A stretch of DNA of 20,000 nt from IMG/VR virus record IMGVR_UViG_3300025769_000092; one strand, written 5' to 3'. The notes under the pieces were generated by a model that saw only the letters and a list, made by a program, of their open reading frames with translations, was not told the DNA's origin and did no database searches. The position numbers and the translations under genes were made by a program. Shown here in pieces: positions 495 to 20,000 of the stretch. Every line of letters begins with the position of its first letter. The stretch's first letter is position 1. Origin of the DNA: an uncultured virus (IMG/VR IMGVR_UViG_3300025769_000092). Taxonomy: Duplodnaviria; Heunggongvirae; Uroviricota; Caudoviricetes.

Positions 495-713
495 ATGTTA
501 CCAGAGGATATAAAAAAATTGGTGATTAAATATAAAAATGAAATCACAATTCTTAATAAAAATATAGTTGACTTACAAGAAAAATGTAGTCATGATAATT
601 ATGAAATAAAAAATATTAGCACTAGCACAGGTGTATTTAGAAATGTGTGTACAACATGTGAAAAAATTATTGGGTATCCAACTGATAAAGAATTTAGAGA
701 AGCTGGTTATTAA
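495..713 (+). CDS. Small hypothetical protein, putative zinc-binding (CxH...CxxC)
   Basis: 72-aa ORF with CSH and CTTC motifs; GGAGG at 483-487 upstream of the start. Confidence 0.65.
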   Translation: MLPEDIKKLVIKYKNEITILNKNIVDLQEKCSHDNYEIKNISTSTGVFRNVCTTCEKIIGYPTDKEFREAGY

Positions 714-1009
714 TTAGTTATTTTTAATCTTGGTGCTCTGAAACGATGTTCATCACCTATATAAATTATTTTACTAATAAAAAATGATGTATCTTTTAAT
801 CGTCTTTTAATGTTGCTATCATAATAGGAATGTATTTTTATACTATCTTCGTAGTTTAATTTTTTAGGTACTATAAAATTATTACAACCCCAATGATTAT
901 CATCTTCAGATGTTTTATAACAGTATGAATACCTCTCATCTCTAAAGATTTCTTTACCGCAACCCATTAAAATAATAATAATACATGTTATTAATAATAA
1001 TTTACTCAT
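710..1009 (-). CDS. Putative lipoprotein
   Basis: MSK, then a hydrophobic stretch, then the lipobox-like LMGC. The start codon is supplied by the junction repeat. Confidence 0.7.
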   Translation of the reverse strand: MSKLLLITCIIIILMGCGKEIFRDERYSYCYKTSEDDNHWGCNNFIVPKKLNYEDSIKIHSYYDSNIKRRLKDTSFFISKIIYIGDEHRFRAPRLKITN

Positions 1010-1024
1010 CTTTGTTTTTGTTTA
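1002..1024 (-). repeat. Gene-junction repeat copy 1 (TAAACAAAAACAAAGATGAGTAA, 22/23 to consensus)
   Basis: Contains the TAA of 1022..1267 and the ATG of 710..1009. Confidence 0.9.
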
Positions 1025-1267
1025 GTCTAAACCTAAATTATGGTCTCCTAATATGTCTCTTATTTTCTCTCTTAGTTTTTCAGCAACTTCATATTCTGCT
1101 TCACTTGCTTGCTCGTTGTGTTTCAACAACGATACATTATACTTTGTAGTTGACCGTAATAATTGGTCTAAGTCCCACATAGCAAGTTTCCACTTGTAAC
1201 CATCTAATGCTGTTCTAGCATCTTCTGCTTCTTCTACTCCATCAAATTCTAAAATAACTTTACTCAT
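1022..1267 (-). CDS. Hypothetical phage protein
   Basis: 81-aa ORF bounded by junction repeats on both sides. Confidence 0.8.
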   Translation of the reverse strand: MSKVILEFDGVEEAEDARTALDGYKWKLAMWDLDQLLRSTTKYNVSLLKHNEQASEAEYEVAEKLREKIRDILGDHNLGLD

Positions 1268-1282
1268 CTTTCATTTGGTTTA
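1260..1282 (-). repeat. Gene-junction repeat copy 2 (TAAACCAAATGAAAGATGAGTAA, 21/23)
   Basis: Contains the TAA of 1280..1501 and the ATG of 1022..1267. Confidence 0.85.
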
Positions 1283-1501
1283 ATAATAATCCTCTTCATC
1301 CCAATAAACTTCCTTACCTAATTCTTCGGCAACGGCTCGAGACACACTATTTATACTAGCACCTAAAAACTCTTTCCATTCAGTATTAGGATTGGCGATA
1401 CAACTATTACCACCACTTGTTAGTTTAATTCTATCTACATCCCATTTGACACCGAAGTAATCAAGAAATTCCTTACATCTATTTAATTCTTTTTCTGTCA
1501 T
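1280..1501 (-). CDS. Hypothetical phage protein
   Basis: 73-aa ORF in a co-oriented cluster. A TATATTTG (-7-like element) lies just upstream at 1506-1513. Confidence 0.75.
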   Translation of the reverse strand: MTEKELNRCKEFLDYFGVKWDVDRIKLTSGGNSCIANPNTEWKEFLGASINSVSRAVAEELGKEVYWDEEDYY

Positions 1502-1526
1502 ATTTCAAATATAATAAAAATTATTT

Positions 1527-1916
1527 TTAATCCCACCATCCTCTAATATAAAATTCAATTAATTTCCATAGAAGTTTATGGGCTCTTTCTTGTTTTTTCA
1601 TCGCTTCTTCAAACTCAATCTTTCCCTTATGCCAGTCATTCATGTATTCTTCATTGTATACTTTATCCATCAGTCTAACAACCATTCTAATCTTTTGGGC
1701 ATCAATATGTGAGTTAGCACCATAGGCTTCATGGGATTCCATAAAATCCGCTTGTTTCAATAACTGGTGTTTGAATACTTCTAATGAGTAATAGTAATCA
1801 AAATCAAATTGTTTCCATATTATAGGAATCCAACCAATAAGATTTTTAATCTGTCTCCATTTTCTACGAGGCCAGTAATTAATGTTTCTCCAAACGTCTT
1901 TTAATTTATTTTTCAT
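1527..1916 (-). CDS. Hypothetical Trp-rich phage protein (probable start MKNKLKD at 1916)
   Basis: The track ORF is 1527..1934. The ATG at 1914-1916 overlaps the end of the upstream gene (ATGAAAAATAA). The protein ends GWWD. Confidence 0.75.
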   Translation of the reverse strand: MKNKLKDVWRNINYWPRRKWRQIKNLIGWIPIIWKQFDFDYYYSLEVFKHQLLKQADFMESHEAYGANSHIDAQKIRMVVRLMDKVYNEEYMNDWHKGKIEFEEAMKKQERAHKLLWKLIEFYIRGWWD

Positions 1917-2157
1917 TTTGTTCCAAATAAGCACGTAATTTTTTTAAATCCTCTTTTTTAAATATTGTACTATCCCAATCACCAAATCTGCTTTTATAAC
2001 CAAAAGCATACTTTAACCCTCGCCATAGTCTTTTAAAAAAGTTTCTGTGAGTTGTCAAGTGTGGTTCGCAATATAAGTTACCATCTTCTTCATCATACCA
2101 AAAAATTACTTGGTGTTCAAGCGAGTGGCATTCGCATATCATTACTATTCTATCCAT
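1906..2157 (-). CDS. Hypothetical phage protein (CxCH motif)
   Basis: 83-aa ORF with an N-terminal ICECHSLEH motif. Confidence 0.75.
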   Translation of the reverse strand: MDRIVMICECHSLEHQVIFWYDEEDGNLYCEPHLTTHRNFFKRLWRGLKYAFGYKSRFGDWDSTIFKKEDLKKLRAYLEQNEK

Positions 2158-2201
2158 AATTCCGTAATTTTTAAAGTCGTTTTAATATTGGTCCATTTAA
2201 G

Positions 2202-2224
2202 TTACTCATCTTTGTTTTGGTTTA
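2202..2224 (-). repeat. Gene-junction repeat copy 3 (perfect consensus)
   Basis: The plus strand reads ttactcatctttgttttggttta. Confidence 0.95.
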
Positions 2225-2313
2225 TCGAAGAATATCCAATTAGCTTTTCCATTCCTCCCTATTTTGGAAATTTTACTAGATATTTCTTTTAGTTTATCTT
2301 TTAACTTACTCAT
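2206..2313 (-). CDS. 35-aa basic micro-protein MSKLKDKLKEISSKISKIGRNGKANWIFFDKPKQR
   Basis: Manually translated. It starts at the ATG of repeat copy 4 and stops at the TGA of repeat copy 3. Confidence 0.55.
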   Translation of the reverse strand: MSKLKDKLKEISSKISKIGRNGKANWIFFDKPKQR

Positions 2314-2328
2314 CTTTGTTTTGGTTTT
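2306..2328 (-). repeat. Gene-junction repeat copy 4 (AAAACCAAAACAAAGATGAGTAA, 22/23)
   Basis: The plus strand reads ttactcatctttgttttggtttt. Confidence 0.95.
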
Positions 2329-2420
2329 CCTCCCCATATTTTTATTGTCATATCTCTTGCGGGTGATGGCTTTAATCTATTCCACCTATCTATCCAATGT
2401 TGCCTTTCTTCTTTACTCAT
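2310..2420 (-). CDS. 36-aa micro-protein MSKEERQHWIDRWNRLKPSPARDMTIKIWGGKPKQR
   Basis: Manually translated. It starts at the ATG of repeat copy 5 and stops at the TGA of repeat copy 4. Confidence 0.6.
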   Translation of the reverse strand: MSKEERQHWIDRWNRLKPSPARDMTIKIWGGKPKQR

Positions 2421-2435
2421 CTTTGTTTTGGTTTA
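2413..2435 (-). repeat. Gene-junction repeat copy 5 (perfect consensus)
   Basis: Encodes the C-terminal NQNKDE* of 2413..2793 and the ATG of 2310..2420. Confidence 0.95.
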
Positions 2436-2793
2436 ATAAATTCATAAAATCTATATCTTTATCTAATATCTCAATAGGTACAGGACTCTTTTCTATAATA
2501 TTCTCTAATACATCTTGTACATATGGTCTAAACCAATACATACCATCTTTTAATCCATAACCGCTTTTACGACATTGATAACAACTACCACTATGGCCTT
2601 CAAAATAGTAATAATCTTCATCTTCTTCAATACCAACGACACCCGAATTCATTTTCCATCTGTCACCATCTAGATATCCACCTCTCCATCCACCGAATAC
2701 TCGGTAATAGGTTTCATTACCTTCAATTTTAAGGATAACCCAACTTTCTGGTTTTTCTGTTATATTTCTGATATCAAATATTTTATCTTCCAT
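2413..2793 (-). CDS. Conserved-looking hypothetical phage protein
   Basis: 126 aa with a WVILKI...YRVFGGWRGGYLDGDRWKMNSG motif of a type I recall from phage hypotheticals. It ends in the repeat-encoded NQNKDE. Confidence 0.8.
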   Translation of the reverse strand: MEDKIFDIRNITEKPESWVILKIEGNETYYRVFGGWRGGYLDGDRWKMNSGVVGIEEDEDYYYFEGHSGSCYQCRKSGYGLKDGMYWFRPYVQDVLENIIEKSPVPIEILDKDIDFMNLLNQNKDE

Positions 2794-2796
2794 AAC

Positions 2797-3000
2797 TTAT
2801 TTATAATTTGTAAGAAACTCTTTGGGTATGTCTTTACTTAATCCTTTCATAATATTCTCTTTGATATATTTAATGTCTTCCTCGTCTTTAATATCCTTAA
2901 TTATTTCTCTAAACTTAATTAAGAAATCAACATTCTCACTTTCACCATAGACATTAACTATTCTATCATGTAACCATTGTAAGTGTTCTGAATTTGTCAT
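2797..3000 (-). CDS. Hypothetical phage protein
   Basis: 67-aa ORF tightly packed in the cluster. Confidence 0.7.
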   Translation of the reverse strand: MTNSEHLQWLHDRIVNVYGESENVDFLIKFREIIKDIKDEEDIKYIKENIMKGLSKDIPKEFLTNYK

Positions 3001-3012
3001 ATTTTTTATATT

Positions 3013-3243
3013 TTAATATCCGTAATTCACTTTAATTGCCTTTGACTGATGTTTTCCTTCCTCACCAAAATGTTCCATCACCTCAATAGCAATATCTGTA
3101 TCCAATTGACATATTACTGCCGAAAAGTAACTTAACATAGATGATTTATCATCAGTTAATGTCATACCAAATTCAAACATAAATTCTTCTATCTCTGAAA
3201 TAATAGTATTTACTTTTCCTTGTCTTTCTCTATCTAATTTCAT
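3013..3243 (-). CDS. Hypothetical phage protein
   Basis: 76-aa ORF whose ATG lies in repeat copy 6. Confidence 0.75.
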   Translation of the reverse strand: MKLDRERQGKVNTIISEIEEFMFEFGMTLTDDKSSMLSYFSAVICQLDTDIAIEVMEHFGEEGKHQSKAIKVNYGY

Positions 3244-3258
3244 CTTTGTTTTGTTTGA
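3236..3258 (-). repeat. Gene-junction repeat copy 6 (TCAAACAAAACAAAGATGAAATT; 14-nt core intact)
   Basis: The core CAAAACAAAGATGA is identical; it lies between 3262..3534 and 3013..3243. Confidence 0.8.
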
Positions 3259-3261
3259 TAT

Positions 3262-3534
3262 TTAGTATTTTTTTAAATCTTTAAACGCCTCAATATCAAA
3301 AAACTCACTCTCTATTTTACCCATAACATCCTTTAAGAATCTACCTTGAGTTTCGTAATCCATATTGGTTATGGCAAATTTAATAGACATAGATAATGAT
3401 GAGGTTAATAAACCAACCAGTTCTAAATCAGACATTCTATTATCTTCTTGGAAGTATTTAAAGTTAAGGTATATCCTACCATCATCTTTAACATTACCTT
3501 CTAAAATGATTCTTTTTAATTCTTCTTTACTCAT
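3262..3534 (-). CDS. Hypothetical phage protein (start at 3534 MSKEE, or at 3543)
   Basis: The track ORF is 3262..3543. The second ATG lies in the half-motif AAGATGAGTAA (3527-3537). Confidence 0.7.
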   Translation of the reverse strand: MSKEELKRIILEGNVKDDGRIYLNFKYFQEDNRMSDLELVGLLTSSLSMSIKFAITNMDYETQGRFLKDVMGKIESEFFDIEAFKDLKKY

Positions 3535-3546
3535 CTTCTCCATTTC

Positions 3547-3684
3547 TTAGTTTGTAAAGTCTCGTTTAATTTGTTTTCTCTTTAGTTCACTTACACCCGA
3601 TGGCATGACAGTAGGCTTGTAATATTTTGTTCCGCATGAAGTCATTGCTATAAGGAAAAGCATCGATATTAATTTTTCACTCAT
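3547..3684 (-). CDS. 45-aa putative small lipoprotein MSEKLISMLFLIAMTSCGTKYYKPTVMPSGVSELKRKQIKRDFTN
   Basis: Manually translated. It fills the gap exactly, has a hydrophobic stretch plus lipobox-like MTSC, and takes its ATG from repeat copy 7. Confidence 0.65.
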   Translation of the reverse strand: MSEKLISMLFLIAMTSCGTKYYKPTVMPSGVSELKRKQIKRDFTN

Positions 3685-3699
3685 CTTTGTTTTGTTTTA
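3677..3699 (-). repeat. Gene-junction repeat copy 7 (TAAAACAAAACAAAGATGAGTGA, 21/23)
   Basis: Contains the TAA of 3697..4065 and the ATG of 3547..3684. Confidence 0.9.
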
Positions 3700-4065
3700 T
3701 ATCCATCCTTTTTTTCTAACCTGTTGTAAAAGATTAGTTAAGTTTATAAATTTAGAGTCACCTATTTCTTTTCTCAGATTTGTTACTTCAATATTTTCAT
3801 TATCTTCTAACACATCAATTAAGAAATCTTTATTATCCCAGTAATCACTATTGTTTTTATTGGCATGGCCTTCTGTATAGTAGGTTACATTTTGAGTACC
3901 TTCCCATATTTCATCATCATCATTTAGTAAAACACTAAACTCAAAATAACCACAATCACTAATAGAAGAGTAATAAAATGTTACTGAATTTTCATTTACT
4001 TTAGTCTCTTCTACTGGTACTAAATTGTACTCTACCCCATCTAATATTATTGTCTTATTATTCAT
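3697..4065 (-). CDS. Hypothetical acidic phage protein
   Basis: 122-aa ORF with N-terminal KTIILDGVEYNLVP. Confidence 0.8.
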   Translation of the reverse strand: MNNKTIILDGVEYNLVPVEETKVNENSVTFYYSSISDCGYFEFSVLLNDDDEIWEGTQNVTYYTEGHANKNNSDYWDNKDFLIDVLEDNENIEVTNLRKEIGDSKFINLTNLLQQVRKKGWI

Positions 4066-4091
4066 ATTTTTAATCTATTAATTCATCTATG

Positions 4092-4152
4092 TTTTATACC
4101 CCTTCGGGTATGTTTCAATTAATTTAACTCATTTTATACCTTAACGGGTATA
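4092..4152. repeat. Tandem pair of palindromic elements TTTTATACC-N5-GGGTAT, 40 bp apart
   Basis: ttttataccccttcgggtat (4092-4111) and ttttataccttaacgggtat (4132-4151), in an intergenic gap. Confidence 0.75.
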
Positions 4153-4189
4153 TGGGATAGAATTCTTATTAAATGCTGTTTGATAATTC

Positions 4190-4372
4190 TTATTTGTTGT
4201 ATTGTTTTAATTCTTTCTCCATATCTAACATGATAAATGATTGTTTTTTAATCATAGCCCTATACTTGAATATGTAAGAGGTTTGAAATGCTAACATGAT
4301 TGCAAACATTGCTATATAGGCATACCAAATCAAACTCTTTGGTGGGTCTAACCTTTTTAAATTAGTTTTCAT
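4190..4372 (-). CDS. Small single-TM membrane protein
   Basis: 60 aa with hydrophobic LIWYAYIAMFAIMLAF; ATG lies in repeat copy 8. Confidence 0.7.
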   Translation of the reverse strand: MKTNLKRLDPPKSLIWYAYIAMFAIMLAFQTSYIFKYRAMIKKQSFIMLDMEKELKQYNK

Positions 4373-4387
4373 CTTTGTTTTGTTTTA
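4365..4387 (-). repeat. Gene-junction repeat copy 8 (TAAAACAAAACAAAGATGAAAAC)
   Basis: Supplies the TGA of 4369..4494 and the ATG of 4190..4372. Confidence 0.85.
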
Positions 4388-4494
4388 TATATTGTCCACA
4401 TTTTCTTTTCACACTCTTGAGAACAAATTGTACCTTTTCCTTTGAATTTGGTCCCACACATATCACATATATTGTATTCTATTTTATTTTTCAT
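4369..4494 (-). CDS. 41-aa zinc-finger micro-protein MKNKIEYNICDMCGTKFKGKGTICSQECEKKMWTIYKTKQR
   Basis: Manually translated. It has CxxC-x10-CSxxC and ends in the repeat-encoded KTKQR*. Confidence 0.7.
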   Translation of the reverse strand: MKNKIEYNICDMCGTKFKGKGTICSQECEKKMWTIYKTKQR

Positions 4495-4499
4495 ATATT

Positions 4500-5738
4500 T
4501 TAAAAAGGTAAATCTTCAATCCAGTTTCCATTAATATCTCTACTATGACCAAGTTTTGTAGCTGGTTCAACATCTATACTTAAACCAATCTCTTTATTAA
4601 AGTTATTAACTTTTTCAATAACCATATTTAATAATGATTCTGGTGGGTTTGAGTTTGAGTGACCTCTTAATTGCCCCACCCTTAGAAATTTACTATGCTT
4701 ATTACTATTGGAAGAAATACTAAATGAAGATTCTGTGTTTAATTCTAGGGTGTAACCATTTACTCTAAAAATACCACAATTACCGTTTTCTACCTTGTTA
4801 ATATAAGTACCAACACAATGATTTTGTTTTTTACCCTCATAAGCCATTTCTTTAGTACTTTGTATGATTTCTATTTTAGAAAATCTTGAGAACTTTAAAT
4901 ATATGTCAGAAATTTTCATTTTTCTATCAGCACCAATAAATATAATATCGTTAATCACTTTAACAAAGTTATCGTGTTCTTGTCTTAATCTTTTTGATGA
5001 CCATGAACAATTAACTTTTTCATCAAGTATTTTTGCCATTTTAAGTGTATCCCTAAATATATTTAATTCACCTCTATCTGAGGTCCACTCTTTTTTTAAT
5101 GACTCAACATTTTTAATATATTTTAAATAGTATTTAAAGTAGTATTTAACCCAGTGGTCATTTGAAGTGTGTAATATTAAGGCCACTGGTTTTGGTACTT
5201 TATATTCAAACTGTAAAGCCTTTTTAAGATTATATAGTTTGTTTTTTATAATTGTATTAAACGCTATATTTTGTAAAACATTGTGTTCTCTAATAAACCT
5301 AATCCATGTAAATTTATTTTGTAGTTCATTTAATATAAGTTCAACCTGTATAGATTCTTTCAAACCTATTTGGTATTGTGGGAATGCACTAGATAAAAAG
5401 TTCATAGTTAGTGGTCTAACGTTTTTTGATTTACCCATGTTATCTATTATCCAGAATTTACCTTCTTTATAAGTTATAGTTAATAGTCTTTTTTCTGAAC
5501 TATAAATTCTATTTGTTATGCTTATACCATATTTTTTCCTAAAATAAACTATAGAGAACTCTCCATTTTTTTCTTTAAATAAAACTAACCTAAAGTTTTC
5601 ATAACCAACTGAGTCATTCATATAGACTACTCTAGCCAGGTATTTATCTTTATTATATAATTTAAATAAATGGTCAACTTTTGGAGAGGTTGCTTCATGT
5701 AACACATTATACTCTGTTTTATCATTCTTATTACTCAT
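4500..5738 (-). CDS. PcfJ-like domain protein
   Basis: 412 aa with the PcfJ-type signature EGKKQNHCVGTY...QLRGHSN near the C-terminus; ends EDLPF. Confidence 0.75.
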   Translation of the reverse strand: MSNKNDKTEYNVLHEATSPKVDHLFKLYNKDKYLARVVYMNDSVGYENFRLVLFKEKNGEFSIVYFRKKYGISITNRIYSSEKRLLTITYKEGKFWIIDNMGKSKNVRPLTMNFLSSAFPQYQIGLKESIQVELILNELQNKFTWIRFIREHNVLQNIAFNTIIKNKLYNLKKALQFEYKVPKPVALILHTSNDHWVKYYFKYYLKYIKNVESLKKEWTSDRGELNIFRDTLKMAKILDEKVNCSWSSKRLRQEHDNFVKVINDIIFIGADRKMKISDIYLKFSRFSKIEIIQSTKEMAYEGKKQNHCVGTYINKVENGNCGIFRVNGYTLELNTESSFSISSNSNKHSKFLRVGQLRGHSNSNPPESLLNMVIEKVNNFNKEIGLSIDVEPATKLGHSRDINGNWIEDLPF

Positions 5739-5765
5739 ATATTAAAATTTTTATTTGGTTGTGTA

Positions 5766-5797
5766 CAAATATAGAATAAAATTTGTAAAAAAACAAA
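5766..5797 (-). promoter_or_regulatory. Bacteroidota-type primary-sigma promoter for the accessory cluster
   Basis: The minus strand reads TTTG-N20-TATATTTG, matching the -33 TTTG / -7 TAnnTTTG consensus. Confidence 0.75.
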
Positions 5798-6485: not shown

Positions 6486-6806
6486 GTGGACATAAGAGAT
6501 AAAATAAGAAAAGCTCTCACAGAAGTATATGGTAATTTTGAGACTTACCTTGAGTCTGAGTATGAGAAATATATCTCTGATAATCTAACGAATGCTTCTA
6601 TGTCCAACAAGAGAAAGTGGATAACCTACAATCAAGTTATATTAGAATTGAAGCATAACATTAAAAATATGCTTAAGGTTAAAGAATTACAATACAAGCT
6701 TACTGAAGATGCGGAACCTAGAGAAGTGTGTATCGAGGTGATAGAAACTTTGGAAATTAAAACTCCAGAACTCGAAAGACTTTATTATAAAATAAGAAAT
6801 TTTTAA
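6486..6806 (+). CDS. Hypothetical protein, paralog of 6923..7258
   Basis: GTG start; motif WITYNQVILEL...ELQYKLTEDAEP. Confidence 0.75.
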   Translation: MDIRDKIRKALTEVYGNFETYLESEYEKYISDNLTNASMSNKRKWITYNQVILELKHNIKNMLKVKELQYKLTEDAEPREVCIEVIETLEIKTPELERLYYKIRNF

Positions 6807-6922: not shown

Positions 6923-7258
6923 ATGGATGACTTTGATTTCACTATAAAATCTGGGTCTGGTAAGTACTCAAATCTAGATAAGGAGTATGGTAATTTCCTT
7001 AAAACAATAACACAAAAATTAGACGGAGAAAAATTATATAGGTGGGAAAGCTACAACCTAATAATTGAAGAGTTAATTAAGGAAAATAAATTATCTACAT
7101 TTGAAGAGGTAAAATACAGATTGACAGATGGGGAAGACCCAAATAACGTAATGTTAGATATTATAACAAGAGAGAATAATTCGAATGGATTAATGTGGTT
7201 GATGAAAAAACGTATTGAAGAATATAAGAATGAAGATTTCTTTGACCAATTTTATTAA
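6923..7258 (+). CDS. Hypothetical protein, paralog of 6486..6806
   Basis: Motif WESYNLIIEEL...EVKYRLTDGEDP. Confidence 0.8.
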   Translation: MDDFDFTIKSGSGKYSNLDKEYGNFLKTITQKLDGEKLYRWESYNLIIEELIKENKLSTFEEVKYRLTDGEDPNNVMLDIITRENNSNGLMWLMKKRIEEYKNEDFFDQFY

Positions 7259-7296: not shown

Positions 7297-7327
7297 TTGA
7301 TTATTTTAAATATTTGTAGTATATTTG
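7297..7327 (+). promoter_or_regulatory. Bacteroidota-type promoter
   Basis: TTG (7297-7299)-N20-TATATTTG (7320-7327), just upstream of the ATG at 7340. Confidence 0.7.
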
Positions 7328-7339
7328 TAAAAAAGTTTT

Positions 7340-12553: not shown

Positions 12554-12571
12554 AGAAAATTTTTATTTGTA

Positions 12572-12636
12572 CAAATATATAACATTATTAATTAAAAATC
12601 AACACTTGATTTTATTATAAATATAAAGTATATTTG
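12572..12636. promoter_or_regulatory. Back-to-back divergent Bacteroidota-type promoters
   Basis: Minus strand: TTG (12602-12600)-N20-TATATTTG (12579-12572). Plus strand: TTG (12606-12608)-N20-TATATTTG (12629-12636). Confidence 0.75.
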
Positions 12637-12654
12637 TACAAAAATATTTTAATT

Positions 12655-12900: not shown

Positions 12901-13344
12901 ATGATTTTAGAGAGAGTAGAAAAAAATGGTTCGGTTGAAGCAATTTATGAATCATCAAACATTGTAGCGTCTAGTTACAATAAAAATAAAAAAGATTTAA
13001 ATATCACATTTAAGCATGGTGGCAACTATACCTATCAAAATGTTTCTGAAACAGACTACATGAGATTTGAAACCGCTGAAAGTCAAGGAAAGATACTTAA
13101 TAGCAACATAAAAAAGTATGCATTTCTTAAGCACGAAAATAAAGACGTTGATTTAGTTATTAAAAAAATTAAAGAACTTAAATCAAGTGAGCTTTCAGCA
13201 ATGGAGGTTGGGTTAGTCAATGTGATGAAAGAGGCTATATCATTATATGAAAGTAGTGGTATGTTAGGTTCTGACATGATTGATAATATCAATAAGGTTT
13301 TAAATGTTTATAATAAAACAGCTAGTCAACCAAAAGCAGAATAA
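12901..13344 (+). CDS. KTSC-domain protein
   Basis: ESSNIVASSY...LNITFKHGGNYTYQNV...AESQGKILNSNIK matches the KTSC pattern, with a helical C-terminal extension. Confidence 0.85.
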   Translation: MILERVEKNGSVEAIYESSNIVASSYNKNKKDLNITFKHGGNYTYQNVSETDYMRFETAESQGKILNSNIKKYAFLKHENKDVDLVIKKIKELKSSELSAMEVGLVNVMKEAISLYESSGMLGSDMIDNINKVLNVYNKTASQPKAE

Positions 13345-13346
13345 AT

Positions 13347-15884: not shown

Positions 15885-17594
15885 ATGAGATTTGATGGTA
15901 AGAAACCAATCGAATTTTCCGATGAAACTGTTGAATTAGAACAGGATAATCTAGAAGAAGAAACTAAATACAAGTTGAAGCTGGACGCACCGAGCGAGCC
16001 AGCTTCTTCTGTTTCTAGTGATGAGGAGTCATTAGATGCTTTTGCTGATGCTGAAGGTGATGAAGAATTATCTTTTGATGATGAAAAAGAAGTTAAGGGT
16101 GGAAACGATAAACCATTTGATGACACACCATTCGATGCTGGTGTTGAAGCTGATGAAGATGAAGACCCAGAAAAATTCATACAACAACTTGCTGGTAAAT
16201 TAGGGACATCTCTTAGAAAATATAATGATGAGAGAGGTGAACCAGATTTTGATTTAGAGAAATACGCTATTAATAGTGTGATATCCGCTACTCACACAGC
16301 TGAAATGGATGAAGAGGACCAAAAGGATATTATTAAGAAAGTTAAGATGTCTGGTGCTGGTGATGATAATGATGACATTGATAAGGATTTAGATATGGAT
16401 TCTGAAGAACCAGCTGAAGACCCAAAACCAGAAGCTGAAGGTGATGAATTAGAAGAAGGTAGTAATTTAGACCCATATCACGGTTTTAGTGATAAAACTT
16501 TAAGGGGTGCTTTGATGCATAAGTTGAATATTTCTCCAATAGATTTAAAAGCAAAAGGAGATTTAGAAAAACTATCTAGGGACGAATTAGAAAAAAAATT
16601 AAACTCCTTAAAAGGTAATAAATTAGAAGAAGGTAGCCGTGAGGGTGAGTCTATGGCTAATAGTGAAATACCTCCTACTGATGATGATTATTCAATAGCA
16701 ACAGAGTTTAAGAAAGAATTAGAGAAAGAGAAAGAGGAAAAAGACAGCGAAAATTTAGTTGGAAAGGCTATGGCTAAATCTGAGATTAAAGAGCTTTTTG
16801 GTAAAAAAAAGATAGACACAAGTGATTTACCTCAAGATATTAAGGATGAGATTGAGAAGTTAAGAGCTGCTGGTAAGAGCGAGGAAGAGATTGAAGACGA
16901 AATATTACACCCACAAGCTAAGAAAGACGGTATTACGTTAAAAAAAAAAGGTTTTAAGTTAGTGGGTGAGGAAGAAGAAAAATTATATGAAGAATCTTGG
17001 GCAGACCCAATGGAATTAAAAGAGGGTGTTGAAGTTTCTGATAACTTAAAGCATCACTTAGATAATAAAATCGCATTAGGTGAAAACGTATTTAGATACG
17101 GTTCAGATAAGCATGTTGAATTATATACTGAAGTAAAAGACTTACATGAAAAGGGATTAATAACTATTAATGAAAACGATGAGATTTTACTTGAGGATTT
17201 TACTGACCAGTCAATCATTATTGAGGGTGAAACAATTCTTTTAAACCTTATTATTGAGGACAGTGGTGAATATATTCTTGAGGGTGATAAATATAAGGGT
17301 AAGAAAACCAATTCACCAACTAGGGGTGCTGGCGGTGGAAAGGCATATAAGGTATTTGTGCCTGGATGTGCTAAGGAAACTAAATCAAACCCAAGAGGTA
17401 TTAAAAAAGTAACATTTGGTTCTGGTGGACTTAAGGCTAAATTAACTAACAAAGATGCTAAGAAGTCATATAACGCTAGACACGGGTGTTCTAAGGGTAA
17501 ACATAACGATAAATGTAAAGCTGGATATTGGTCATGCAGATTACCTAGATATGCTAATAAACTAGGTTTATCTGGTGGTGGTACTTGGTGGTAA
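15885..17594 (+). CDS. Large modular protein (acidic N-terminal part, basic Cys/His C-terminal domain); possibly expressed by -1 frameshift from the upstream ORF
   Basis: 569 aa. The frame is open upstream through the A10 run. It ends in a KKVTFG...SYNARHGC...AGYWSCR module. Confidence 0.8.
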   Translation: MRFDGKKPIEFSDETVELEQDNLEEETKYKLKLDAPSEPASSVSSDEESLDAFADAEGDEELSFDDEKEVKGGNDKPFDDTPFDAGVEADEDEDPEKFIQQLAGKLGTSLRKYNDERGEPDFDLEKYAINSVISATHTAEMDEEDQKDIIKKVKMSGAGDDNDDIDKDLDMDSEEPAEDPKPEAEGDELEEGSNLDPYHGFSDKTLRGALMHKLNISPIDLKAKGDLEKLSRDELEKKLNSLKGNKLEEGSREGESMANSEIPPTDDDYSIATEFKKELEKEKEEKDSENLVGKAMAKSEIKELFGKKKIDTSDLPQDIKDEIEKLRAAGKSEEEIEDEILHPQAKKDGITLKKKGFKLVGEEEEKLYEESWADPMELKEGVEVSDNLKHHLDNKIALGENVFRYGSDKHVELYTEVKDLHEKGLITINENDEILLEDFTDQSIIIEGETILLNLIIEDSGEYILEGDKYKGKKTNSPTRGAGGGKAYKVFVPGCAKETKSNPRGIKKVTFGSGGLKAKLTNKDAKKSYNARHGCSKGKHNDKCKAGYWSCRLPRYANKLGLSGGGTWW

Positions 17595-17606
17595 AATATA
17601 ATTAAT

Positions 17607-18815
17607 ATGGATAGGTTACAAAATTATATGTTTTTTGAGAATCTAGAGCAAATCTCTAGAGATATTAATAAATTAATGTCGTTAGACAAAGAAAAGATTG
17701 ACGCTATTATAAGTAATGGGCATGATTGGGTTGGTGAGCATATAACAACCGCAAAGGATGATATCGAAGAAATCACTAACTTTTTATTAAGTAATGCTCA
17801 AGAAGATAAACCATATGGTGAAGAGATTGGTGAGAATGGTATTATTAGAAGGACTTTCTCTGAGAATGTTAATGAATCTGAACTAGAGTGGCATAGAGAT
17901 AAAGAAGATAGAATTGTTTTACCCATTAATGAAAATGATTGGTCAATTCAATTTGACAATGAATTACCTAAGAAGTTAAACGTAAACGAAGAGTTCTTTA
18001 TACCAAAAGAAACTTTCCATAGAGTTATTAAGGGTTCTACTGATTTAGTAGTTGAGGTCATTAAAACAACTTTTGAAGAAGATGAGTATGAATTATTTGA
18101 AGCATACGAAACTTACGAAGTTATAGAAGAGGGTAAAAAGAAGAAGAAAAAGAAGAAGAAAAAGAAGAAGAAGAAAACTAAAAAAGATGCTTGCTATTAT
18201 AAGGTTAAGGGTAGATATAAGGTTTGGCCTTCGGCATACGCTTCTGGAGCATTAACTACATGTAGAAACGTTGGTGCTGCTAACTGGGGTAATAGTACTG
18301 ATGAATCTGAATTAGATGAAGCTAAAAAGAGAAAACTAACAGCCAAGCCAAGTTCTGAAACAAATCTAGGTGATTGGTTTAAGAGAAAAGGCGCTAAAGG
18401 TAAAACAGGTGGATGGGTTGATTGTAATACTTGTAGAAAAGATTCTAAGACTGGTAGAAATAAATGTAAACCTTGTGGTAGAAAAGAAGGTGAGAAGAGA
18501 GCTAAGTACCCAGCATGTAGACCAACACCAGGAGCTTGTAAAGCAAAAGGTAAGGGTAAAAAGTGGGGTAAAAAGTCAAAGAAGAACGAAAACTTGCAAG
18601 AATCACATAAAAATACTATATTTGTAGAAAACATAGATATGAAAGACCTTATAGTACATAACTTACACGAAACGACTCAGCCAGAGGTGAAGCCAGATGT
18701 TAAACCTACAGTTGTTCCTCAAAAAAATCCTTCACCATTAAGAAGAAGATTGTGGGAAAGTAAACCAGCTAGTAAACCAAAGCCTAAAATGGGTAACAAC
18801 AATGATATTGAATAA
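17607..18815 (+). CDS. Modular protein: helical domain, cupin-like domain, poly-Lys, basic Cys-rich modules and Pro-rich tail
   Basis: WHRD...FIPKETFHRVIKG (cupin-like), a K14 tract, DACYYKVKGRYKVWPSAYASGA and WVDCNTC...PCGR...PACRP. Confidence 0.8.
   Translation: MDRLQNYMFFENLEQISRDINKLMSLDKEKIDAIISNGHDWVGEHITTAKDDIEEITNFLLSNAQEDKPYGEEIGENGIIRRTFSENVNESELEWHRDKEDRIVLPINENDWSIQFDNELPKKLNVNEEFFIPKETFHRVIKGSTDLVVEVIKTTFEEDEYELFEAYETYEVIEEGKKKKKKKKKKKKKKTKKDACYYKVKGRYKVWPSAYASGALTTCRNVGAANWGNSTDESELDEAKKRKLTAKPSSETNLGDWFKRKGAKGKTGGWVDCNTCRKDSKTGRNKCKPCGRKEGEKRAKYPACRPTPGACKAKGKGKKWGKKSKKNENLQESHKNTIFVENIDMKDLIVHNLHETTQPEVKPDVKPTVVPQKNPSPLRRRLWESKPASKPKPKMGNNNDIE
18135..18170 (+). repeat. 3 x 12-bp tandem repeat AAAAAGAAGAAG encoding poly-Lys
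   Basis: Exact triplication read from the sequence. Confidence 0.85.
18594..18624 (+). promoter_or_regulatory. Intragenic Bacteroidota-type promoter
   Basis: TTG (18594-18596)-N20-TATATTTG (18617-18624); in-frame ATG at 18639. Confidence 0.55.
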
Positions 18816-19237
18816 TGGAAGAATTATACTTAATATACGTTAATAAAATTGGTGAGGACTGGACTGGAAAACATCTTTATGAATTCTTGTTTTCAGATAC
18901 AACTGAAAATGTAGATGGTGATGATTGGGATGCTTATCCAGCATCTGGTAGACCATCACCACCAAGTGAGGGTTTTGTTAAAAGAGTTGGTAAACTAGTT
19001 AGTAATGAATTAAAATTAAAATTAGTTCAAAATAATAGTGAGTTTGCTGTTTGGGATGCTGTTGATGGTGTTGTAGCTTTAGCTTGGGAAGACATGGATG
19101 ATTATGATGAATATCCAGAAAATAGAATTGCAATTCACTTTGGTGAATCAATTAAGAGTGTTGAAGATAAATTATATGAACATGATTTAGTTTTAGATTA
19201 TAACAATATTAATGAAACTATTAAAAATGAGAATTAA
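18815..19237 (+). CDS. Hypothetical acidic protein
   Basis: 140 aa; TAATG stop/start overlap with the upstream gene. Confidence 0.85.
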   Translation: MEELYLIYVNKIGEDWTGKHLYEFLFSDTTENVDGDDWDAYPASGRPSPPSEGFVKRVGKLVSNELKLKLVQNNSEFAVWDAVDGVVALAWEDMDDYDEYPENRIAIHFGESIKSVEDKLYEHDLVLDYNNINETIKNEN

Positions 19238-19922
19238 AAAGAAACATATTAAAGAAAAGGTTGAAACTATAAAAAAAGACCTTGAATCTAAAGATATAGA
19301 AAAAGAAAAAGAATCACCTATAGATGCTAAAGCAGATAAGGTTGATACAGAATTAAGTGATAAATTAGACCAGGTTAAAAAACAACTTAGACCTAGTATA
19401 GAGGGTCTTGAAGATGAACTTGAATTAATGACTGGTAGCAAAGATACTGCTGAAAAGCTTACCCAAGATATGGTTGATGCCGCACTTAAATCAGAAGGTA
19501 AAAATAAGGAAAAAGAAAGTCCTATCCATAAAGAAAAGTGGGAACGTTGTGTTAAAGATGTAAAGAAAAAATCTCCAGATGTAAATCCTTATGCTGTTTG
19601 TACAGCTTCAATAGGGTACGAAGGTTCAATTAAAAAACCACATAGAAGAAAAGATGAAAATGAAGAAAGAATAGCTTCAGATGCAATAAAGTATGGTCAA
19701 ACTCAAGGCGAGGTCGGTGATGAATTTTATGATTTACTAAAAAGTTTACCAAATGACGATAAGCCAACACCAAAAGACAACAAAGATGAACCGCTAAATG
19801 ATTTACCATTCGAGTCTGTTAAACCTAAGATGACTAAAAATGAGTTAATAGAAAGTGTTGTTGGTAAAAAAACGAGAAAAGTAATAAAAACAATTAGTAT
19901 TAAAAATTTAAGAAATGAGTAA
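19227..19922 (+). CDS. Hypothetical charged modular protein (probable start MRIKKKH)
   Basis: The track ORF is 19212..19922. It contains a KWERCVKDVKK...NPYAVCTAS module and KEKESPI twice. Confidence 0.75.
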   Translation: MRIKKKHIKEKVETIKKDLESKDIEKEKESPIDAKADKVDTELSDKLDQVKKQLRPSIEGLEDELELMTGSKDTAEKLTQDMVDAALKSEGKNKEKESPIHKEKWERCVKDVKKKSPDVNPYAVCTASIGYEGSIKKPHRRKDENEERIASDAIKYGQTQGEVGDEFYDLLKSLPNDDKPTPKDNKDEPLNDLPFESVKPKMTKNELIESVVGKKTRKVIKTISIKNLRNE

Positions 19923-20000
19923 ATATAGAGAATTAGCAAAAAAAGCTTTAGAAGAAAATAGAGGTAAGTCTAAAGAAGTTGTAAATGAAAACTATCTTTA
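19915..20000 (+). CDS. N-terminus of the next gene (MSKYRELAKKALEENRGKSKEVVNENYL...), truncated by the window end
   Basis: ATGAGTAA overlaps the upstream stop; the frame is open to the window end. Confidence 0.65.
   Translation, partial: MSKYRELAKKALEENRGKSKEVVNENYL

What the first reader, a model, noticed from the sequence alone, without database searches (positions are those of the whole stretch)
2202..2435. The junction element is a frame-independent stop-and-restart adaptor, and all three stop frames are used
Seen: in the 23-mer, TAA is at positions 1-3 (frame 0), TGA at 17-19 (frame +1) and TAA at 21-23 (frame +2), with ATG at 16-18. Upstream genes end at the leading TAA (1022..1267, 1280..1501, 3697..4065), at the TGA reading K(P/T)KQR* (2206..2313, 2310..2420, 4369..4494), or at the last TAA reading NQNKDE* (2413..2793). 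Downstream genes begin MSK/MSE/MSN/MK from the same ATG. The consensus has A at -3, -6, -12 and -13, the positions reported to favour SD-independent initiation in Flavobacterium. Inference: any DNA placed between two copies gains a start, a stop and translational coupling regardless of frame. That would make it a ready device for capturing fragments or creating new genes.
Basis: partly seen in the sequence, partly recalled or inferred. Interest (0 to 1): 0.85.

Follow-up and report, generated by a model that had tools for sequence, protein, structure and literature searches.

The report
Start-stop junction motif of phage cassettes
A 23-base sequence that ends one small gene and starts the next recurs almost unchanged between unrelated small genes in this phage and in many other uncultured phages, and single genes have been exchanged between phages at this sequence.

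Summary
On the minus strand the window holds 8 copies of TAAACCAAAACAAAGATGAGTAA (0 expected by chance), plus 2 decayed copies. All lie in one co-directional block of small genes (710-4494).

The pattern holds elsewhere. The exact 20-mer occurs in at least 136 stretches of IMG/VR viral contigs, against 9 in 185,579 prokaryote genomes. Among 158 unique copies from the window and 21 distinct contigs, upstream ORFs stop at +1 (40), +5 (40) and -15 (31).

The motif's ATG is a real start codon. An in-frame stop lies 5 codons upstream, the median downstream ORF is 61 codons, dN/dS is 0.04-0.41, and homologues align from residue 1. The genes it heads are mostly unrelated: 126 of 158 have no relative in the set.

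Phages that share almost nothing else share single cassettes at 84-99% nucleotide identity, and that similarity ends inside the motif.

My reading: it is a phage start-associated sequence without a Shine-Dalgarno element. It probably serves Bacteroidota hosts, and it doubles as a three-frame terminator and a recombination linker. It is a new variant of the SAS and PeSL kinds. Translational coupling, and use for capturing fragments or making new genes, are not shown.

The parts
4365..4387 (-). Motif copy (ATG 4372-4370). It heads gene 4190..4372 (60 aa). Upstream gene 4369..4494 ends at the motif's TGA (+1) with tail KTKQR*.
3677..3699 (-). Motif copy (ATG 3684-3682). It heads 3547..3684 (45 aa). 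Upstream gene 3697..4065 ends at the motif's leading TAA (-15).
3527..3549 (-). Decayed copy. The TAA that ends 3547..3684 is followed by 12 nt and then ATGAGTAAA, the second ATG of 3262..3543. The central A/C tract has been replaced.
   Evidence: read
3236..3258 (-). Motif copy with 2 mismatches and no TAA at -15 (ATG 3243-3241). It heads 3013..3243 (76 aa). The upstream gene stops at -21.
2413..2435 (-). Perfect motif copy (ATG 2420-2418). It heads the 36-aa gene 2310..2420. Upstream gene 2413..2793 ends at the last TAA (+5) with tail NQNKDE*.
   Evidence: The 36-aa protein has 23 cluster representatives at E<=1e-3.
2306..2328 (-). Motif copy with 1 mismatch (A instead of T at -15; ATG 2313-2311). 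It heads the 35-aa gene 2206..2313. Upstream gene 2310..2420 ends at TGA (+1) with tail KPKQR*.
   Evidence: The 35-aa ORF has a 94%-identical homologue in L098, dN/dS 0.04.
2202..2224 (-). Perfect motif copy (ATG 2209-2207). It opens only a 12-codon ORF (2171..2209), 13 nt before gene 1906..2157. Upstream gene 2206..2313 ends at TGA (+1).
1260..1282 (-). Motif copy with 2 mismatches (ATG 1267-1265). It heads 1022..1267 (81 aa). Upstream gene 1280..1501 ends at TAA (-15).
1002..1024 (-). Motif copy with 1 mismatch (ATG 1009-1007). It heads 710..1009 (99 aa). Upstream gene 1022..1267 ends at TAA (-15).
4079..4101 (-). Decayed copy: the core with one mismatch, followed by ATG AAT TAA. It lies in the only non-coding gap of the block.
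710..4494 (-). Co-directional block of 15 small genes (35-129 aa) with no Pfam family. Only one of them (1906..2157) matches a PHROG family. All motif copies lie in this block.
5764..5773 (-). TATATTTGTA box, a fit to the Bacteroidetes -7 promoter element. It lies 25 nt before the PcfJ-like gene 4500..5738, which precedes the block. No such box lies inside 710-4494.
   Evidence: consensus from PMC6847099

Best explanation
The element is a phage start-associated junction sequence: one fixed stretch of 23-25 nt that does three jobs.

1. Start of the next gene. It is the translation initiation region of the downstream small gene. It has an A/C-rich leader that cannot pair with itself and carries no Shine-Dalgarno sequence. 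Adenines stand at -3, -6 and -12 to -14. The leader is followed by AUG AGU AAA.

2. End of the previous gene. It has a stop in each reading frame: TAA at -15, TGA at +1 and TAA at +5. Whatever the frame of the upstream gene, it ends between 12 nt before and 8 nt after the next AUG. These are the ordinary -4 and -8 overlaps, or a 12-nt gap. Ribosomes on a polycistronic mRNA can then start the next gene, either by re-initiation or afresh on the open leader.

3. Place of exchange. Every cassette in many otherwise unrelated phages carries the same sequence. It is therefore the stretch of homology at which whole genes are swapped.

Shown here: the copies, their single orientation and their clustering; use of the stops in all three frames; that the ATG is the start of genes under purifying selection; that nucleotide similarity between phages is cassette-sized and ends inside the motif; and that the long motif is nearly absent from prokaryote genomes.

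Inferred: that it drives initiation without a Shine-Dalgarno sequence; that translation of neighbours is coupled; that recombination happens within the motif rather than merely being selected at gene borders; and that the hosts are Bacteroidota.
For: Copies and chance:
- 6 copies against 0 expected; 7 exact cores.
- One search lists the 8 window copies.

Spread:
- It occurs in 9 stretches of 185,579 prokaryote genomes. At least 4 of those 9 are motif arrays sitting in MAG bins.
- In 27 of 27 contigs picked because they matched, the core is clustered and almost always on one strand. I count 160 copies against 3 of the reversed control (my addition).

Stops:
- One search covers 158 unique copies. 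Of the 145 with an upstream ORF of at least 30 codons, 111 end at +1, +5 or -15.
- Unused stops are kept.

The ATG is a real start:
- The in-frame TAA at -15 is followed by no start codon before the ATG.
- 144 of 154 downstream ORFs have at least 20 codons, with a median of 61.
- Homologues align from residue 1.
- dN/dS is 0.04-0.41 in 6 ungapped pairs.
- The 36-aa ORF has 23 representatives at E<=1e-3.

Not a family of paralogues: the 158 cassettes fall into 141 clusters, 126 of them singletons.

Exchange:
- 83 of 152 HSP ends lie within -30..+12 of a motif ATG, against 18.1 +/- 4.0 for random placement.
- Five blocks run from motif to motif in both partners.
- G014 and G015 share only 201 nt, at 99%, starting at -9 and ending at +3.
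- G010 and the window share only 247 nt, at 84%.
- Whole contigs share 0-1 ORFs of at least 80 aa in most pairs.

Constraint: copies within a contig are no more alike than copies between contigs, 4.79 versus 4.52 mismatches in 25 nt.

Initiation region features:
- The adenines match Baez 2019.
- Predicted unpaired probability over -20..+9 is 0.64 for 8 motif starts and 0.52 for 26 other starts, Mann-Whitney p = 0.006.

Host:
- A Shine-Dalgarno-like core precedes 1 of 33 gene starts.
- There are five TATATTTGTA boxes, which fit TAHHTTTG.
- The G014 primase matches only phages of Bacteroidota among the 16 records with a named host.
Against: - There are no RNA, ribosome or reporter data.
- The 11-mer core is hardly enriched in 41 genomes of the order of a Chryseobacterium MAG: 219 against 172 for the reversed control, by my addition. 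It is therefore not a common host start context.
- It is not enriched in any of the 9 distinct GenBank phage records I scanned. These include phages of Flavobacterium, Polaribacter, Cellulophaga and Maribacter. It is thus not general to phages of Bacteroidota, which a purely host-set optimum would predict.
- The C at -5, -10 and -11 and the G at -1 are not explained by the published adenine rule.
- The +5 stop is present in only 95 of 158 copies, and all three stops in 78 of 158.
- A 12-14 nt gap cut re-initiation by 40-80% in E. coli and Haloferax (PMC10666635).
- Mosaic borders at gene ends are expected in phages in any case. BLAST also extends through the shared motif, so the random-placement null is generous.
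- The arrays were found through the motif itself, so conservation at -10..+4 is by construction.
Confidence: 0.6

Rival explanations
1. The motif is only a translation initiation region. It is a strong leader kept identical by selection from the host ribosome. The stops are by-products of an A/T-rich sequence and of tight gene packing. Cassette borders coincide with it only because it sits at gene borders.
For: - The adenines match the published rule, and the region is predicted to be more open.
- The -4 and -8 overlaps are the commonest gene junctions in prokaryotes generally (PMC10666635).
- The motif consensus is the same in all contigs.
Against: - The T at -15 and the TAA at +5 are kept at 59% and 58% in an unbiased sample, against roughly 8% for a stop at a given position at 30% GC by my own estimate (not a tool result). 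They are also kept where they are not used.
- The motif is absent from other phages of Bacteroidota that I scanned and rare in sampled genomes of the order.
- Near-identical single cassettes in otherwise unrelated phages end inside the motif.
Confidence: 0.2
2. The motif is a recognition site on RNA for a trans-acting factor. One possibility is a translational repressor of a temporal gene class, as RegA is in T4. Another is an endoribonuclease that cuts the polycistronic RNA into units. Its identity across copies would then reflect binding specificity.
For: - There is more sequence information than the adenine rule needs: C at -5, -10 and -11, G at -1 and AGU AAA after the AUG.
- The motif is restricted to one or two clusters per genome, for example 17 of 18 copies in two clusters of the 380-kb G004.
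- The authors of the SAS paper raise the same idea.
Against: - Phages that share the motif share almost no genes. No gene family recurred beside the arrays except thymidylate synthase and one 84-aa ORF, each in 4 contigs.
- A phage-encoded factor is therefore unlikely. A host factor is possible but untested.
Confidence: 0.12
3. The motif is a site for a site-specific recombinase or the end of a small mobile element. The arrays would then be integron-like cassette arrays.
For: - The arrays are co-oriented rows of unrelated small genes, with single cassettes shared between unrelated genomes.
Against: - No integrase or other recombinase family was found among the window's 34 ORFs. None recurs beside the arrays.
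- The 23-mer has no inverted symmetry, since almost all of its bases are A or C.
- The motif always includes a start codon in a fixed register.
Confidence: 0.05
4. The motif is a promoter, one per small gene.
For: - None beyond its position in front of genes.
Against: - The gene strand has no TTTG or TAHHTTTG element.
- The sigma-70 scan found 40 sites against 45.4 +/- 7.0 in shuffles.
- The motif abuts and includes the ATG.
- The specific TATATTTGTA box occurs elsewhere in the window but not in the block.
Confidence: 0.03

Closest known systems
Start-Associated Sequences (SAS) of Cluster K mycobacteriophages (Pope et al. 2011, PMC3203893; passages read)
   Same: - Both are short asymmetric repeats in one orientation, next to the start codons of many unrelated non-structural genes.
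- In both, the upstream stop sometimes lies inside the repeat.
- Both are conserved across subgroups and virtually absent from host genomes.
- A role in translation initiation is proposed for both and tested for neither.
   Different: - SAS is 5'-GGGATAGGAGCCC. It contains a Shine-Dalgarno core and lies 3-7 bp before the start.
- The present motif has no Shine-Dalgarno core and includes the ATG and two codons.
- It has stops in all three frames.
- It is shared by phages that are otherwise unrelated.
PeSL (promoter-early stem-loop) cassettes in hyperplastic regions of T4-type phages (Arbiol 2010, PMC2839356; Comeau 2014, PMC4122927; abstracts read)
   Same: - Both are conserved regulatory motifs between small non-essential ORFs in variable regions.
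- In both, insertions, deletions and replacements between phages have their borders at the motif.
- In both, the motif is read as a site of homologous exchange.
   Different: - PeSLs are intergenic transcription signals: a sigma-70-like promoter plus a terminator hairpin.
- The present motif has neither. It works at the stop-start junction and overlaps both coding sequences.
- Mini-circles, which are shown for PeSLs, could not be looked for here.
Termination-reinitiation at overlapping gene pairs (Huber et al. 2019, PMC6728339, listing only; Huber et al. 2023, PMC10666635, passages read)
   Same: - Two of the three stop positions give the -4 (ATGA) and -8 overlaps, which are among the commonest junctions in prokaryotes.
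   Different: - Here the whole junction is one fixed 23-mer that serves all three frames.
- The third position leaves a 12-nt gap.
- Coupling has not been measured in any Bacteroidia.
Shine-Dalgarno-independent, Kozak-like initiation region of Bacteroidia (Baez et al. 2019, PMC6847099; passages read)
   Same: - Adenines at -3, -6, -12 and -13, no Shine-Dalgarno sequence, and little predicted structure.
   Different: - The host rule is a weak, degenerate preference.
- The phage motif is a near-invariant word with fixed C and G positions, and it is rare in sampled genomes of the order.

Membership tests
Start-Associated Sequence (SAS), Cluster K mycobacteriophages | Short asymmetric repeat, one orientation, at many gene starts in the non-structural part of the genome | tested here: met
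   All 8 window copies are on the minus strand in one block. The core is clustered and mostly on one strand in 27 of 27 contigs searched.
Start-Associated Sequence (SAS), Cluster K mycobacteriophages | Consensus 5'-GGGATAGGAGCCC with a Shine-Dalgarno core, 3-7 bp before the start | tested here: not met
   The sequence is different, has no Shine-Dalgarno core, and abuts and includes the ATG. It is an analogue, not a member.
Start-Associated Sequence (SAS), Cluster K mycobacteriophages | Virtually absent from host genomes | tested here: met
   The 20-mer occurs in 9 stretches of 185,579 genomes. The 11-mer core gives 219 against 172 for the control in 41 genomes. The true host is not known.
PeSL cassettes of T4-type phages | Strong sigma-70-like early promoter in the motif | tested here: not met
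   The 23-mer holds no promoter hexamers and no -7 box.
PeSL cassettes of T4-type phages | Stem-loop terminator in the motif | tested here: not met
   The motif is almost all A and C and cannot pair with itself. The region is predicted to be more open than other starts.
PeSL cassettes of T4-type phages | Borders of gene gain, loss and replacement between phages lie at the motif | tested here: met
   83 of 152 HSP ends lie at a motif, against 18.1 expected. Single-cassette islands are shared between otherwise dissimilar phages.
PeSL cassettes of T4-type phages | Mini-circles formed by exchange between neighbouring motifs | not testable with these tools
   This needs PCR or reads from phage DNA.
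Termination-reinitiation gene pairs | Co-directional genes with a short overlap or very short gap | tested here: met
   There are 40 junctions with a -4 overlap, 40 with a -8 overlap and 31 with a 12-nt gap, among 145.
Termination-reinitiation gene pairs | Downstream translation depends on upstream translation | not testable with these tools
   This needs two-reporter constructs in a Bacteroidia host.
Bacteroidia Shine-Dalgarno-independent initiation region | Adenines at -3, -6, -12 and -13, and no Shine-Dalgarno sequence | tested here: met
   Adenine frequency is 0.97-0.99 at these positions (partly by selection). A Shine-Dalgarno-like core precedes 1 of 33 starts.
Integron cassette array | Integrase gene and attC sites with inverted repeats | tested here: not met
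   The 34 window ORFs include no integrase family. None recurs beside the arrays. The motif has no inverted symmetry.

The most novel reading that the evidence does not exclude
A common plug for gene exchange among phages of one host group. A single 23-nt word supplies a stop in any frame, a start without a Shine-Dalgarno sequence, and the homology for crossover. Small accessory genes would then circulate as ready-to-express cassettes between unrelated siphovirus-like, myovirus-like and 380-kb phages. Ribosomes of the host, probably Bacteroidia, would re-initiate at it after terminating in any frame.
Probability: 0.3. Interest if true: 0.8.

Novelty: new variant of a known kind. Interest (0 to 1): 0.62.

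Why it matters
How new small genes enter and move between phage genomes is an old question. The linker idea of modular evolution has few concrete examples, and PeSLs are the best of them. Here one short word marks the borders of hundreds of unrelated small genes in phages that share little else, so exchange at a defined sequence can be tested directly.

It is also a natural, compact candidate for a strong initiation signal in a phylum whose ribosomes ignore Shine-Dalgarno sequences. Every reading frame closes within it. That makes it a ready test object for re-initiation in Bacteroidia and a possible part for gene expression in these bacteria.

Tried and rejected
- Own genome: none is held. 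The nearest record, G001, is the same phage. It overlaps only window 17375-20000 and has no core copy.
- Close relatives through the PcfJ-like protein: none found.
- Paralogue family or tandem duplication: rejected.
- Promoter: rejected.
- Known RNA family: none at Rfam gathering thresholds.
- Density of TAnnTTTG inside and outside arrays: 0.69 against 0.62 per kb, which is uninformative.
- GenBank phages by blastn with window 2190-2445: only weak chance-level hits. The low-complexity filter may hide the motif, so this is weak evidence of absence.
- Core scan of 9 distinct GenBank phage records: no enrichment. The records were Flavobacterium phages immuto, elemoE and lotta8-2; Maribacter phage Panino; Polaribacter phage Leef_1; Cellulophaga phage phi46:1; MW202828; and two uncultured phage records of about 640 kb.
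- The search for homologous proteins for the 36-aa ORF: the query was too short.
- Two dN/dS rows (L033, L149) are dropped because those alignments have gaps.
- Literature: the string CCAAAACAAAGATG is in 0 papers of the library. A word search for conserved intergenic motifs in phages of Bacteroidetes gave nothing relevant among the 8 listed.
- Earlier scan notes by place and by sequence: nothing.
Full report
WHAT IS THERE

The window is AT-rich (30% GC) and comes from a large phage. It encodes thymidylate synthase, a ClpB-like ATPase, a thioredoxin, an RNase H-like protein and a PcfJ-like protein. From 6062 down to 710 all genes run on the minus strand. From 4494 down they are 15 small genes of 35-129 aa. 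None has a Pfam family, and only 1906..2157 has a PHROG family.

Its core AAACAAAGATG occurs 7 times exactly, all in 1007-4380 on the minus strand. Together this makes 8 copies within 3 mismatches of the 18-mer ending in ATG.

Two decayed copies remain:
- At 3527-3549 the spacing TAA-N12-ATGAGTAAA is kept but the middle is replaced.
- At 4079-4101 the core with one mismatch is followed by ATG AAT TAA.

No plus-strand gene in the window has the motif.

- Three upstream genes end at the TAA at -15.
- Three end at the TGA of ATGA, with tails KPKQR* or KTKQR* encoded by the motif itself.
- One ends at the TAA at +5, with tail NQNKDE*.
- One stops at -21, outside a variant copy.

One correction is needed. 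The copy at 2202-2224 opens only a 12-codon ORF (2171..2209), 13 nt before the next gene.

THE ATG IS A REAL START

- In most copies an in-frame TAA lies five codons upstream, with no start codon in between. The ORF therefore cannot begin earlier.
- Across 154 copies whose downstream ORF could be followed, the median length is 61 codons and 144 have at least 20.
- Homologues of the window's cassette genes found in other loci align from residue 1.
- Six ungapped pairs give dN/dS of 0.04-0.41 at dS of 0.27-0.94. This includes the 35-aa ORF 2206..2313 (0.04). Two gapped rows were dropped.
- The 36-aa ORF 2310..2420 has 23 cluster representatives at E<=1e-3 among 1.84 billion proteins. One of them, P0005, looks to me like a spurious repeat protein. 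Several begin at the same Met.

The two micro-ORFs in the flagged stretch are therefore conserved genes, not noise.

THE MOTIF ELSEWHERE

The 15-mer core is in at least 134 stretches of IMG/VR contigs and the exact 20-mer in at least 136. The same 20-mer is in only 9 stretches of 185,579 prokaryote genomes. At least 4 of those 9 are themselves motif arrays lying in MAG bins. Two of them carry homologues of window genes at 84-90% amino-acid identity.

I searched 27 contigs whole, chosen because they had matches. In all of them the core is clustered in one or two tight arrays, almost always on one strand. I count 160 copies against 3 of the reversed control (my addition). In a sample chosen only by positions -10..+4, the flanks are conserved too. 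T at -15 is 0.70, A at -14 to -12 is 0.77-0.82, C at -11 is 0.63, T at +5 is 0.72 and A at +6 to +8 is 0.59-0.67 (151 unique sites).

STOP FRAMES OVER MANY COPIES

I collected 180 copies, 158 of them unique, from the window and 21 distinct contigs. Five further fetched stretches added no unique copy. Of the 145 copies with an upstream ORF of at least 30 codons:
- 40 stop at +1, 40 at +5 and 31 at -15.
- 7 stop at +8 and 6 at +11.
- 21 stop elsewhere.
- The other 13 copies have no such ORF.

By frame class the split is 36:45:64, a mild excess of the +2 frame (chi-square p = 0.015).

A stop is present at -15 in 132, at +1 in 152 and at +5 in 95 of the 158 copies. All three are present in 78. In the unbiased sample the figures are 86 of 146 at -15 and 85 of 146 at +5. 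Where the upstream gene uses +1, the -15 stop is still there in 20 of 29 copies and the +5 stop in 18 of 29. My own estimate for a stop at a given position at this base composition is about 8%. This is not a tool result.

One gene family ends ...KPKQR* in two phages and ...KQKKDE* in a third. The relatives of the 36-aa protein carry several different tails, including ...NKDE. The same gene can thus sit in different frames relative to the motif.

WHAT THE MOTIF JOINS

The 158 cassette proteins fall into 141 clusters, 126 of them singletons. ORFs under 20 aa were not compared and count as singletons. The motif is therefore not the shared 5' end of a paralogue family.

The carrier phages are also mostly unrelated to one another:
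- Seven contigs fetched whole, compared with one another and with the window, share 0-1 ORFs of at least 80 aa in most pairs.
- G014 and G019 are both rated 100% complete at 33 kb and look siphovirus-like. They share 1 ORF at 38% identity.
- G010 has baseplate genes.
- G004 is a 380-kb genome rated complete.

Motif copies within a contig are no more alike than copies between contigs: 4.79 against 4.52 mismatches in 25 nt, with no excess in permutation.

EXCHANGE AT THE MOTIF

Between different loci there are 49 BLASTN HSPs of at least 80 nt, with 152 ends inside arrays. Of those ends, 83 lie within -30..+12 of a motif ATG. Random placement gives 18.1 +/- 4.0, with a maximum of 32 in 2000 trials. 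Five blocks run from motif to motif in both partners, for example:
- 93% over 224 nt, from -23 to +6.
- 96% over 162 nt, from -15 to +5.

These blocks are islands in otherwise dissimilar DNA:
- The whole of G014 against 8 kb of G015 shares only 201 nt, at 99%.
- The whole of G010 against this 20-kb window shares only 247 nt, at 84% (gene 1280..1501).
- G010 against 17 kb of G011 shares only 146 nt, at 92%.

In the G014/G015 pair the identity starts 9 nt before the ATG and ends 3 nt into the next ATG. The 35-aa gene 2206..2313 of the window lies, in locus L098, directly after a homologue of 4190..4372, which is a different neighbour from the one it has here.

Two caveats apply. Mosaic borders at gene ends are common in phages whatever the mechanism. 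BLAST also extends through the shared motif, so the random null is generous.

HOST

The host is not known. Several signs point to Bacteroidota:
- A Shine-Dalgarno-like core precedes 1 of 33 gene starts.
- The window has five TATATTTGTA boxes, four of them 10-25 nt before gene starts. They fit the TAHHTTTG -7 element of Bacteroidetes promoters (PMC6847099).
- The thymidylate synthase is closest to two uncultured phage records of about 640 kb and to Flavobacterium phage immuto.
- The primase-helicase of G014 hits 21 GenBank records. All 16 with a named host are phages of Flavobacterium, Polaribacter, Cellulophaga, Maribacter or Bacteroides.

Against a simple 'host optimum' reading:
- The 11-mer core is hardly enriched in 41 genomes of the order of a Chryseobacterium MAG, at 219 against 172 for the reversed control (my addition).
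- None of the 9 distinct GenBank phage records I scanned is enriched.

HOW IT MOST LIKELY WORKS

The block has no box of the promoter type seen elsewhere in the window. It follows a gene that does have one, at 5764-5773. I therefore take the block to be one polycistronic RNA, which is an inference.

On such an RNA each gene needs its own way to recruit ribosomes without a Shine-Dalgarno sequence. The motif offers adenines at -3, -6, -12 and -13, which are the positive determinants measured in F. johnsoniae (PMC6847099, passages read). It also offers a leader that cannot pair with itself. Predicted unpaired probability over -20..+9 is 0.64 for the 8 motif starts and 0.52 for 26 other starts (p = 0.006).

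The three stops bring a terminating ribosome to within 12 nt before or 8 nt after the AUG. The -4 and -8 overlaps are among the commonest junctions in prokaryotes. In the two species tested, gaps of 13-14 nt cost 40-80% of re-initiation (PMC10666635, passages read). The third of genes that end at -15 may therefore rely more on fresh initiation.

The identical word in all cassettes gives about 23 bp of homology for crossover. Any recombinant keeps a stop and a start only if all copies keep all three stops. That would explain why unused stops are conserved. The last two steps are inference.

COMPARISON WITH KNOWN SYSTEMS

By position and behaviour, the closest known element is the Start-Associated Sequence of Cluster K mycobacteriophages. 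By role in gene shuffling, it is the PeSL of T4-type phages. The motif is a member of neither. It lacks the SAS sequence and its Shine-Dalgarno core, and it lacks the promoter and hairpin of a PeSL.

I found no description of it. The string search gave 0 papers and a word search gave nothing relevant. Supplements were not searched.

Earlier notes of this scan describe other junction motifs in other phages. These are leads only, and I did not test them.

VERDICT

The feature is real, widespread and apparently undescribed. The 'adaptor' property is real as a matter of sequence and usage. Coupling, fragment capture and gene birth remain untested.

Noticed in passing
window 5764-5773(-), 7320-7329(+), 12570-12579(-), 12629-12638(+), 18617-18626(+): There are five copies of TATATTTGTA. 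Four lie 10-25 nt before gene starts, and two form a divergent pair around 12553/12655 with the palindrome TTTGTACAAA. They fit the Bacteroidetes -7 promoter element. The 10-mer pattern as a whole is not significantly enriched: 7 matches against 3.46 expected.
   Followed up: partly
window 4080-4175 (-): This is the only non-coding gap in the small-gene block. It holds two direct repeats of a short hairpin followed by TATAAAA, next to a decayed motif copy. As RNA the stretch folds at -20.1 kcal/mol, z = -3.4. Its function is unknown.
   Followed up: partly
contigs G002-G028: In 16 of the 27 contigs searched, a core copy lies within 3 kb of a contig end. This would fit assemblies breaking in a hypervariable or repeated region. 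I counted it by eye from the two tables.
   Followed up: no
L138 and L139 (G004, 380 kb): One complete 380-kb phage genome has two arrays, at 89.7-92.3 kb and 375.0-380.2 kb. They share several cassettes at 95-100% nucleotide identity, which means duplication or exchange within a single genome.
   Followed up: partly
L146, L147, L149, L151: Contigs binned into MAGs labelled Promethearchaeia, Campylobacteraceae and Aenigmatarchaeota carry motif arrays. L147, L149 and L151 also carry homologues of window genes at 51-90% amino-acid identity. They look like phage DNA placed in the wrong bins.
   Followed up: partly
G061:C5:243065-252298: One genome of the sampled order has 8 copies of the 11-mer core at a period of about 1.3 kb on one strand. 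This is presumably a tandem gene family.
   Followed up: no
window 6486-6806(+) and 6923-7258(+): Two neighbouring 106-aa and 111-aa proteins are distant paralogues: 27% identity over 86 aa, E = 3e-6 for the single comparison.
   Followed up: partly
window 13325-13346 (+): The leader of the thymidylate synthase gene reads like a motif copy with insertions. In G025 the thymidylate synthase gene starts directly at a good motif copy.
   Followed up: no
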